Below are positions 62,310-62,810 of a DNA stretch of 64,000 bases, piece by piece. Origin of the DNA: Alphaproteobacteria bacterium (GTDB taxonomy: Bacteria > Pseudomonadota > Alphaproteobacteria > JAUHZC01); the NCBI GenBank assembly GCA_023898725.1, contig CP060236.1, positions 342,804 through 406,803 on the forward strand, written 5' to 3'. Within the stretch, counting starts at the first letter, position 1. The number at the start of each line of letters is the position of its first letter. The notes under the pieces are model-generated. The model made no database searches. It had not been told where the DNA came from and saw only the letters and a list, made by a program, of their open reading frames with translations. Position numbers and translations under genes: made by a program.

Positions 62310-62810
62310 TCAGCTTGCTAGCGATTCATTCTTGGTAATTTCTACGTCAGAAATACTCACAGGAAAAGACCATTGTTCCCGAATATTGCCCGATACTAGC
62401 GTTCCGTCAATAATCACCGACAACCGCTGCTTCACACGATCAAATGCATTGATCTCAACCTTGATATCCTCCAGGCGCGGCTCGAAGCGAGCAATTGTCT
62501 GTGCAAGAAGGTGCTTGATATTAGCCTTGCCCTCCGTCGATGTTACGTCGTGATCACCAAAATAATGGGCACCATAAAAGAGAGTTGTTCCTGCAACACT
62601 TTCGTCTGGTTCATCCAGTTCCTGAAGACGTAAATGGCCAGGACGTGTATTGAGAAGCATCTCTATTTCATGATGCATTGATTCTTTTAATTGGTCCCGG
62701 TTGTAGCGACGCAAGGGAGTGGGCTCCTCGTCAGAACGAGGATTGTTATCCACTAATCGATCAAACAAGGGGACGGGGGCTTGAAGTGACTTTGGGATTT
62801 TCGTGGTCAT
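62310..62810 (-). CDS. tssE: Type VI secretion system baseplate subunit TssE (gp25-like, ImpF)
   Basis: PLFDRLVD...LKESMHHEIEMLLNTRPG...IARFEPRLEDIKVEI...RLSVIIDGTL is the typical TssE/GPW_gp25 pattern. GGAG SD 8 nt before the ATG at 62810. The stop lies 5 nt before the miaA start. Confidence 0.8.
   Translation of the reverse strand: MTTKIPKSLQAPVPLFDRLVDNNPRSDEEPTPLRRYNRDQLKESMHHEIEMLLNTRPGHLRLQELDEPDESVAGTTLFYGAHYFGDHDVTSTEGKANIKHLLAQTIARFEPRLEDIKVEINAFDRVKQRLSVIIDGTLVSGNIREQWSFPVSISDVEITKNESLAS

What the first reader, a model, noticed from the sequence alone, without database searches (positions are those of the whole stretch)
62310..62810. tssE sits 29.6 kb from tssBC and appears operonic with the housekeeping gene miaA
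The gp25-like baseplate gene tssE ends 5 nt before the miaA start codon on the same strand. It is separated from tssB-tssC-hcp by about 30 housekeeping genes (pdhC, the fab operon, aspS, secA and others). In the ancestral imp-type arrangement the order is tssB-tssC-hcp-(tagJ)-tssE. This looks like that operon was split by a rearrangement and its distal half fused to a tRNA-modification gene. Co-transcription of a secretion baseplate gene with miaA would be an unusual regulatory coupling.
Basis: partly seen in the sequence, partly recalled or inferred. Interest (0 to 1): 0.68.

Follow-up and report, generated by a model that had tools for sequence, protein, structure and literature searches.

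The report
Conserved tssE–miaA gene pair, relocated
The secretion-system baseplate gene tssE really does abut the tRNA-modification gene miaA, but this pairing is old and shared by every known relative. Only the separation from tssB-tssC-hcp is new, so this is an ordinary gene-order change in a small symbiont-like genome.

Summary
tssE (62310-62810, minus strand, TIGR03357 74.7 bits against a 53.2 cutoff) ends 5 nt before a GTG-initiated miaA (61402-62304). tssB-tssC-hcp lie 29.6 kb away on the opposite strand.

In all seven other members of this uncultured alphaproteobacterial clade (TssE 54-77% identical), miaA starts between -1 and +5 nt from the tssE stop. Five of them have tssC-hcp-tssE-miaA contiguous. 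The tssE-miaA junction is therefore ancestral and was not made by the split.

The split is derived in this lineage. The pair is inverted relative to both conserved flanks, hcp and a SpoU methylase gene. One relative independently gained an ABC exporter gene between hcp and tssE.

In every genome with data, hcp is followed by a terminator hairpin. In the window's subclade a promoter-like box precedes tssE. tssE-miaA therefore looks like its own two-gene unit, which could be moved without loss of expression. This is inferred, not shown.

Dispersed T6SS genes and an orphan tssE are already documented in Holosporales (PMC8163844). No evidence supports an adaptive T6SS-MiaA coupling. Interest is low.

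The parts
62310..62810 (-). tssE, T6SS baseplate subunit with a gp25-like fold, 166 aa, ATG start
   Evidence: TIGR03357 74.7 bits against a 53.2 cutoff. PF04965. AF2 model top Foldseek hits are T4 gp25 5iv5/5iw9 and 2ia7. Orthologues sit directly after tssB-tssC-hcp in relatives.
62305..62309 (-). 5-nt spacer (CTCTT) between the tssE stop TGA and the miaA start GTG
   Evidence: Read directly from the sequence. The homologous junction in relatives is -1 to +4 nt.
61402..62304 (-). miaA, tRNA (adenosine37-N6)-dimethylallyltransferase, 300 aa, GTG start, P-loop GPTASGKS
   Evidence: TIGR00174 206.7 bits against a 148.65 cutoff. PF01715 1.6e-58. N-termini of orthologues align from the start codon that abuts tssE.
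62817..62820 (-). GGAG Shine-Dalgarno motif 6 nt upstream of the tssE ATG
   Evidence: duplex with anti-SD -6.1 kcal/mol. miaA has none (-0.4 kcal/mol), but only 20 of 47 window genes show an SD-like motif.
62836..62864 (-). Putative tssE-miaA promoter, TTGCGC-17 nt-CATACT. This is a weak consensus match found by eye.
   Evidence: Coordinates. It aligns with TTGCGA-17-CATAAT in L004. The homologous position in L002 and L018 has TTTGCA-18-CATAAT, found by the scanner. The window copy is below the scanner's threshold.
62922..64000 (-). 3' part of a 1511-aa ORF with an N-terminal signal-peptide-like segment and no Pfam domain. It is the new upstream neighbour of tssE and continues beyond the window.
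   Evidence: L001 760-5295. No Pfam hit at E<=0.1. No homologue in any fetched relative locus.
30061..32674 (+). tssB (30061-30603), tssC (30625-32073) and the Hcp-like gene (32108-32674)
   Evidence: TIGR03358 161.9 bits and TIGR03355 664.6 bits. PF05638 23.4 bits against GA 23.5 for the 188-aa ORF. The same three genes occur in the same order in relatives.
32700..32737 (+). Terminator-like hairpin plus U-run directly after hcp
   Evidence: dG -15.6 kcal/mol, z -2.15. Positionally homologous hairpins in L002-L005 have dG -14.4 to -19.8, z -3.6 to -5.5, and different stem sequences. The scanner finds them in L002 and L018.
32859..32935 (+). tRNA-Pro(UGG), the first gene after the hcp-side breakpoint
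   Evidence: ARAGORN and Rfam. Absent from all fetched relative loci.
32972..61332 (.). Intervening block of about 23 protein genes. In order: pdhC, dCache-HAMP-cyclase, SBP-like, cNMP-binding DASS transporter, HAD, amino-acid permease, MFS, fabD, fabG, fabF, 723-aa unknown, autotransporter, three unknowns, aspS, secA, ppiC-type rotamase, AmpG-like MFS, and 174-aa and 203-aa unknowns.

Best explanation
tssE-miaA is an old two-gene unit shared by this whole clade of small-genome uncultured Alphaproteobacteria.

How it arose. In the clade's ancestor the canonical T6SS cluster (tssB-tssC-hcp-tssE-tssF-tssG-clpV, as in the nearest outgroup) had already been cut after tssE. miaA then lay directly downstream, with the intergenic space compacted to about 0-5 nt.

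How it is probably expressed. hcp ends in an intrinsic terminator, and a sigma-70-like promoter plus SD precede tssE. tssE-miaA is therefore most likely transcribed as its own bicistronic mRNA. miaA (GTG/TTG start, no SD, abutting or overlapping the tssE stop) is probably translated by ribosomes that terminate at tssE.

Why it could move. Because the pair carries its own promoter, it can be relocated as a cassette. In the window's lineage it was inverted relative to both conserved flanks. About 29.6 kb now lies between hcp and miaA, and a 4.5-kb lineage-specific ORF lies between tssE and the SpoU methylase gene.

What the coupling means. It is most likely a neutral by-product of genome reduction. 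miaA became dependent on tssE's expression signals, which then kept the two genes together. It is probably not an adaptive regulatory link.

Shown: gene identities, the junction, its conservation, the ancestral contiguity, the hairpins, and the inversion relative to the flanks.

Inferred: promoter activity, co-transcription, translational coupling and neutrality.
For: Identity.

Junction conservation:
- window: TGA + 5 nt + GTG
- L002, L004, L006, L018: TAA followed directly by GTG
- L003: TAGTG, a 1-nt overlap
- L005: TAA followed directly by TTG
- L010: TAA + 4 nt + ATG
In L002 to L006 no other start codon lies upstream of the P-loop.

Contiguity in relatives:
- tssC-hcp-tssE-miaA is contiguous in L002, L003, L005, L010 and L018. 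These span both subclades of the TssE and MiaA trees, and the two trees are congruent.
- L004 shows an independent interruption by an ABC exporter gene on the opposite strand.

Outgroups:
- L014 (43% identical) has tssB-tssC-hcp-tssE-tssF-tssG-clpV.
- L009 has tssC-tagJ-tssE.

Expression signals:
- Terminator hairpins follow hcp in all five loci that were folded, with different stem sequences. A matching hairpin is visible in L010.
- The scanner finds promoter-like boxes at the homologous site in L002, L004 and L018. The window has an aligned weaker copy.
- No terminator-like site lies between tssE and miaA.

Inversion: the SpoU gene lies downstream of miaA, convergent with it, in L002, L006 and L010. 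In the window genome its orthologue (52-66% identical) lies upstream of tssE on the same strand.

Literature: T6SS genes are dispersed at four or more loci in Holosporales, and tssE (CPBP_00258) is an orphan far from tssBC-hcp (CPBP_00985-987) in Ca. Bodocaedibacter (PMC8163844).
Against: - There are no transcript data.
- Promoter matches are weak. The window copy is below the scanner threshold, and no scanner hit falls in the spacer for subclade B.
- Absence of an SD before miaA is not distinctive, because only 20 of 47 window genes show one.
- Synonymous-site conservation at the tssE 3' end is not clearly elevated, so nothing in the sequence specifically marks a coupling element.
- A promoter-like TTGACG-17-AATATT lies inside tssE (62410-62382). 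It could drive miaA independently.
- The rearrangement path cannot be reconstructed. Genes downstream of miaA differ among the window, L002, L006 and L010, and no repeats mark the breakpoints.
- The hcp-side junction is not independently confirmed beyond position 32887.
Confidence: 0.62

Rival explanations
1. A recent rearrangement split tssB-tssC-hcp-tssE and thereby fused tssE to miaA, creating a new operon in this genome.
For: In the window tssE is 29.6 kb from hcp and 5 nt from miaA.
Against: The same junction exists in all 7 other clade members, including 5 with an unsplit hcp-tssE. TssE and MiaA phylogenies are congruent.
Confidence: 0.03
2. The adjacency is only compaction. miaA is transcribed mainly from its own promoter embedded in the tssE coding sequence, as E. 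coli miaA is from promoters inside mutL (my own knowledge of the amiB-mutL-miaA-hfq superoperon). Expression of the two genes is then largely uncoupled.
For: A promoter-like TTGACG-17-AATATT lies at 62410-62382 on the minus strand, about 80 nt upstream of the miaA start. The AATATT part is retained in L002 and L004. A housekeeping gene would be expected to need constitutive expression.
Against: The hit is at chance frequency (7 found against 5.8 expected). The hexamers coincide with conserved codons and are not retained in subclade B. The start codon abutting or overlapping the stop in 8 of 8 genomes suggests that ribosome hand-over matters.
Confidence: 0.2
3. The coupling is adaptive. MiaA (i6A37) dosage is tied to T6SS baseplate expression because translation of T6SS or effector genes depends on MiaA-modified tRNAs.
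For: The pair survived two independent rearrangements of its flanks. In P. aeruginosa a miaA deletion lowers T6SS expression, among many other virulence traits (PMC13434334).
Against: The linkage is confined to one clade. The Holosporales MAG L016 has tssE after sspB, and the outgroup L014 has tssE-tssF. T6SS genes in the window are not enriched in UNN codons (z from -2.0 to +1.0). The other T6SS genes are not linked to miaA. The P. aeruginosa effect is pleiotropic.
Confidence: 0.08
4. The separation is an assembly artefact: a mis-join at the tRNA-Pro.
For: The independent contig L019 ends inside tRNA-Pro at 32887.
Against: L019 shows hcp followed by a hairpin and tRNA-Pro sequence, not by tssE. 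L001 shows a 1511-aa ORF, not hcp, upstream of tssE. tssE is therefore not next to hcp, whatever the true distance.
Confidence: 0.05

Closest known systems
Dispersed T6SS of Holosporales endosymbionts (Bodocaedibacteraceae, Paracaedibacteraceae, Caedimonadaceae; Midha et al. 2021, PMC8163844)
   Same: A [tssB-tssC-hcp-like] mini-cluster is flanked by housekeeping genes. The Hcp is divergent. tssE is detached from the rest: in Ca. B. vickermanii tssE is CPBP_00258 while tssBC-hcp is CPBP_00985-987. The genome is small (longest contig 1.1 Mb).
   Different: Membership of the window's organism in Holosporales is not shown. The only labels are an 'uncultured Alphaproteobacteria' MAG and SecA at 59% or less to named Rhodospirillales. 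The published scheme does not mention a tssE-miaA pair. The one Holosporales MAG examined has tssE after sspB instead.
Canonical T6SS-i cluster tssB-tssC-hcp-tssE-tssF-tssG-clpV
   Same: The order tssB-tssC-hcp-tssE is kept in most clade members. The nearest outgroup L014 (TssC 63%, TssE 43% identical) has the full cluster.
   Different: In this clade the cluster stops at tssE and miaA follows. No tssF, tssG or clpV lies nearby. hcp carries its own terminator.
E. coli amiB-mutL-miaA-hfq-hflX superoperon (my own knowledge)
   Same: miaA is co-oriented and tightly packed behind a functionally unrelated gene. It is expressed partly by read-through and partly from promoters inside the upstream gene.
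   Different: The upstream partner is different (mutL rather than tssE). In the window mutL lies at 12158-14020, far from miaA.

Membership tests
T6SS baseplate subunit TssE (TIGR03357 / PF04965) | Scores above the curated cutoff of the TssE equivalog HMM | tested here: met
   74.7 bits against 53.2. PF04965 45.6 bits against 27.2. No PHROGs phage family at E<=0.01.
T6SS baseplate subunit TssE (TIGR03357 / PF04965) | gp25-like fold | tested here: met
   The AF2 model has mean pLDDT 62.7, with the core (residues 82-160) at about 80. Top Foldseek PDB hits are T4 gp25 5iv5/5iw9 (E about 1e-3) and 2ia7 (TM 0.59 on the target). Support is modest. A sequence profile found no PDB chain at E<=0.01.
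T6SS baseplate subunit TssE (TIGR03357 / PF04965) | Encoded next to T6SS sheath and tube genes | tested here: not met
   Not met in the window itself: 29.6 kb away and on the opposite strand. Met for its orthologues in L002, L003, L005, L010 and L018, and for outgroups L009 and L014.
T6SS baseplate subunit TssE (TIGR03357 / PF04965) | Remaining core genes (tssF, G, K, A, L, M, vgrG) present in the same genome | not testable with these tools
   Only the 64-kb window plus 4 kb (L001) of this genome could be read. None of these genes is in the window.
MiaA (TIGR00174) | Equivalog HMM above the cutoff and an N-terminal P-loop | tested here: met
   206.7 bits against 148.65. GPTASGKS at residues 14-21.
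Bicistronic operon (tssE-miaA co-transcription) | Same strand, gap too short for a terminator or promoter, adjacency conserved in relatives | tested here: met
   5-nt gap. No terminator-like site. Junction of -1 to +5 nt in 8 of 8 genomes.
Bicistronic operon (tssE-miaA co-transcription) | A transcript spanning both genes | not testable with these tools
   No transcriptome of this organism is available here.
Holosporales-type dispersed T6SS | A [tssB-tssC-hcp] module separated from the other T6SS modules | tested here: met
   compared with PMC8163844.
Holosporales-type dispersed T6SS | The organism belongs to Holosporales/Holosporineae | tested here: inconclusive
   The only named relative is an 'uncultured Alphaproteobacteria' MAG. 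The best named SecA matches are Rhodospirillales at 57-59%. No rRNA gene is in the window.

The most novel reading that the evidence does not exclude
tssE-miaA is a selected regulatory module. In this symbiont clade the level of i6A37 tRNA modification is hard-wired, by shared promoter and translational coupling, to T6SS baseplate production. Secretion activity and decoding of UNN-rich host-interaction genes would then rise and fall together. This would explain why the pair survived every flank rearrangement.
Probability: 0.08. Interest if true: 0.5.

Novelty: new member of a known kind. Interest (0 to 1): 0.2.

Why it matters
The result mainly corrects the finding. The eye-catching fusion of a secretion gene to a tRNA-modification gene is not a product of the rearrangement. 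It is an old, clade-wide gene pair that behaves as a movable two-gene cassette.

It adds a small detail to the picture of T6SS fragmentation in reduced alphaproteobacterial symbiont genomes. tssE can be kept as an orphan with its own expression signals, and a housekeeping gene can become dependent on them.

If the coupling were shown to be functional, it would be a compact natural example of tRNA-modification dosage tied to a secretion machine. Nothing here argues for that over neutral compaction.

Tried and rejected
- Related loci. The 7-sequence alignment found only one GTDB genome. A metagenome-contig scan found nothing.
- Structures. A profile search of PDB sequences found no hit, so fold comparison was used instead.
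- Embedded signal. Third-codon-position conservation along tssE was computed to look for an embedded miaA promoter or RBS. There is no clear excess at the 3' end.
- SD absence. It was considered as evidence for translational coupling, then weakened because only 20 of 47 window genes have an SD-like motif.
- Breakpoint repeats. Inverted repeats or IS remnants at the two breakpoints were sought. Only chance-level matches were found.
- ABC gene remnants. Remnants of the ABC gene pair in the nrdB-tssB spacer were sought. None was found.
- UNN codons. Enrichment in T6SS genes was tested as a MiaA link. None was found.
- Rfam. Only tRNAs were found in the window.
- secA neighbourhood. L017 was examined to place the second breakpoint. 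aspS-secA-rotamase is conserved but the continuation differs, so it was uninformative.
- Single-inversion model. One 30-kb inversion (hcp|tssE and tRNA-Pro|1511-aa ORF) would produce the window's layout from a hypothetical immediate ancestor. It cannot be tested because no sufficiently close relative covers both ends, and at least two events are needed relative to L010 and L002.

Full report
**Observation**

The ORF at 62310-62810 (minus strand, ATG at 62810, 166 aa) matches Pfam GPW_gp25. It also matches the NCBIfam equivalog for T6SS TssE, TIGR03357, at 74.7 bits against a cutoff of 53.2. It matches no PHROGs phage family.

An AlphaFold2 model built from seven clade sequences has mean pLDDT 62.7, with the core at about 80. 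Its best PDB matches are T4 gp25 (5iv5, 5iw9) and the gp25-like protein 2ia7.

Five nucleotides after the TGA stop, on the same strand, a GTG opens a 300-aa MiaA at 61402-62304. It scores 206.7 bits against TIGR00174 and matches PF01715.

tssB, tssC and a 188-aa Hcp-like gene lie at 30061-32674 on the plus strand. The Hcp-like gene scores 23.4 bits against PF05638, just under the gathering score of 23.5. From the hcp stop to the tssE stop is 29.6 kb.

The block in between holds about 23 protein genes plus tRNA-Pro:
- a dCache-HAMP-cyclase
- a cNMP-binding transporter
- an autotransporter
- about seven ORFs without a Pfam domain

tssE-miaA is on the opposite strand to tssBC-hcp, and the block is not purely housekeeping.

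**Independent assemblies**

Two short-read contigs from SRR12358676 are 100% identical to the window.

L001 covers 56592-64000 and continues for 4.2 kb. It shows that the ORF upstream of tssE is a 1511-aa protein with a signal-peptide-like N-terminus and no Pfam domain, preceded by a SpoU-family methylase gene.

L019 covers 26108-32887 and ends inside tRNA-Pro. tssE is therefore certainly not next to hcp in this organism. The exact distance rests on the window's assembly alone.

**Relatives**

A search of 5.8 billion proteins gives a tight TssE clade of eight 90%-identity clusters (255 bits or more with the clade profile). There is then a sharp drop to 114 bits. I read the genomic context of all of them.

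In every one, miaA follows tssE on the same strand with the start codon at the stop:
- window: TGA + 5 nt + GTG
- L002, L004, L006, L018: TAA followed directly by GTG
- L003: TAGTG, a 1-nt overlap
- L005: TAA followed directly by TTG. The gene caller chose a later ATG, but the P-loop lies upstream of it.
- L010: TAA + 4 nt + ATG

In L002 to L006 no other start codon exists upstream of the P-loop.

Five relatives (L002, L003, L005, L010, L018) have tssC-hcp-tssE-miaA contiguous. L006's contig starts in the spacer, so it is uninformative. L004 has an ABC exporter gene on the opposite strand between hcp and tssE.

Neighbour-joining trees of TssE and of MiaA are congruent. They split the clade into two subclades:
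- A: window, L004, L018 and L002
- B: L003, L005, L010 and L006

The contiguous layout occurs in both subclades, so it is ancestral. The window and L004 carry independent, derived interruptions.

The nearest outgroup, L014 (TssE 43%, TssC 63% identical), has the canonical tssB-tssC-hcp-tssE-tssF-tssG-clpV cluster, with tssKLM and vgrG nearby. Another outgroup, L009, has tssC-tagJ-tssE. A MAG labelled Holosporales (L016) has an orphan tssE after sspB.

There were therefore two events at different times:
- Old: the cluster was truncated after tssE and miaA came to lie against it. This is shared by the whole clade.
- Recent: the tssE-miaA pair was separated from tssBC-hcp in the window's lineage only.

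**Anatomy of the unit**

Directly after hcp, every locus that could be folded has a hairpin followed by a U-run. The window's is at 32700-32737 (dG -15.6 kcal/mol, z -2.15). Those in L002 to L005 have dG from -14.4 to -19.8 and z from -3.6 to -5.5.

The stems differ in sequence between genomes while the pairing is kept. The scanner also reports these hairpins in L002 and L018, and a matching one is visible in L010.

The hcp-tssE spacer is 109-140 nt, much longer than the tssB-tssC and tssC-hcp gaps. In subclade A the scanner finds a sigma-70-like box at the homologous place: L004 TTGCGA-17-CATAAT, and L002 and L018 TTTGCA-18-CATAAT. The window aligns there with a weaker TTGCGC-17-CATACT at 62864-62836, which is below the scanner's threshold.

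In subclade B only sub-threshold matches are visible by eye.

tssE has a GGAG SD; miaA has none. Since only 20 of 47 window genes show an SD-like motif, this is weak evidence. No terminator-like site lies between tssE and miaA.

**Rearrangement**

In L010, L006 and L002 a SpoU methylase gene lies downstream of miaA and convergent with it, followed by petABC. In the window genome its orthologue (52-66% identical) lies upstream of tssE on the same strand, separated from it by the 1511-aa ORF.

With hcp taken as plus and SpoU as minus in both layouts, the tssE-miaA pair is inverted in the window genome. The breakpoints fall outside the pair: upstream of its promoter region and downstream of miaA.

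A single inversion of about 30 kb (hcp|tssE and tRNA-Pro|1511-aa ORF) would explain the layout from a hypothetical immediate ancestor. However, genes downstream of miaA differ among the window, L002, L006 and L010. At least two events therefore separate the window from any relative I could read.

No inverted repeats mark the breakpoints. The neighbourhood is rearrangement-prone in general. For example, the DASS-nrdA-nrdB block is inverted in L010 relative to L003. The ABC gene pair that lies between nrdB and tssB in relatives is absent from the window without a trace.

**Mechanism**

The best-supported reading is that tssE-miaA is an autonomous bicistronic unit. It would be transcribed from a promoter in the spacer after the hcp terminator. 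miaA would be translated by ribosomes that terminate at tssE.

That autonomy explains why the pair could be cut away from tssBC-hcp twice independently without loss. miaA's dependence on tssE's signals explains why the junction itself never broke while both flanks did.

These steps are inferred. Only the sequence features and their conservation are shown.

The main rival is an internal miaA promoter inside tssE, by analogy with E. coli miaA promoters inside mutL (my own knowledge). The window has a chance-level candidate at 62410-62382, and it is not conserved in subclade B.

An adaptive T6SS-MiaA link is not excluded. A miaA deletion lowers T6SS expression, among many other traits, in P. aeruginosa (PMC13434334). 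Three results argue against it:
- the linkage is clade-specific
- the other T6SS genes are not linked to miaA
- the window's T6SS genes are not UNN-rich

**Comparison with what is known**

Midha et al. [quoted passage not shown] Their Supplementary Table 3 lists tssE as CPBP_00258, far from tssBC-hcp at CPBP_00985-987.

A 2025 review calls the Holosporineae T6SS conserved but non-standard (PMC11909080). An orphan tssE far from the sheath genes in a small alphaproteobacterial symbiont genome is therefore already on record.

The tssE-miaA pair is not mentioned in the searchable literature.

Whether the window's organism is a member of Holosporales is not established. The only label is an 'uncultured Alphaproteobacteria' MAG, and SecA is 59% or less identical to named Rhodospirillales.

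**Verdict**

The feature is a new instance of a known kind of gene-order erosion in reduced genomes, with a neat but minor twist, a conserved and portable tssE-miaA cassette. Interest is low.

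Noticed in passing
window 62922-64000 (-), continuing in L001 760-5295: A 1511-aa ORF with a signal-peptide-like N-terminus, no Pfam domain and no homologue in any fetched relative locus. It sits between the SpoU methylase gene and tssE. It is a candidate lineage-specific secreted or effector protein.
   Followed up: partly
window 34316-36466 (-), and L014 4465-6627: A dCache-HAMP-adenylate/guanylate cyclase lies 1.6 kb past hcp. It is 32% identical over 659 aa to a cyclase that sits directly upstream of tssB inside the canonical T6SS cluster of the outgroup L014. 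A cNMP-binding DASS transporter gene lies at 37558-39381, separated from the cyclase by an SBP-like gene. This may be a T6SS-linked cyclic-nucleotide regulator.
   Followed up: no
window 29421-30060: A 640-bp non-coding spacer between nrdB and tssB. All relatives have an ABC ATPase gene plus a roughly 215-aa gene there. tblastn finds no remnant.
   Followed up: partly
window 32108-32674 (+): The 188-aa gene after tssC scores 23.4 bits against PF05638 Hcp, just under the gathering score of 23.5. It has no NCBIfam hit, yet it is conserved in this position in all relatives (63-84% identical). This may be why reviews report Holosporineae as lacking the tube protein.
   Followed up: partly
window 60195-61332 (+): Two adjacent small ORFs (174 and 203 aa) with signal-peptide-like N-termini and no family match. 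They are absent from the fetched loci of relatives and are convergent with miaA.
   Followed up: partly
window 46575-52832: A run of ORFs inside the 'housekeeping' block: a 723-aa unknown, a 415-aa autotransporter beta-domain protein, and 298-, 402- and 170-aa unknowns. It looks like a host-interaction islet rather than housekeeping genes.
   Followed up: no
L019 end = window 32887 (inside tRNA-Pro 32859-32935): The independent short-read contig breaks inside the tRNA-Pro gene that marks the hcp-side breakpoint. The hcp-tRNA-Pro-pdhC join is therefore supported only by the window's own assembly.
   Followed up: partly
L010 1070-5790 compared with L003 1132-5837: The DASS-nrdA-nrdB block is inverted between two relatives. 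This shows that the neighbourhood upstream of tssB is also prone to inversion in this clade.
   Followed up: no
TssE and MiaA of all clade loci: Within the clade MiaA is less conserved than TssE: 42-58% against 54-77% identity to the window. The window's MiaA sits on a long branch. This is unusual for a housekeeping enzyme compared with an accessory baseplate protein.
   Followed up: no
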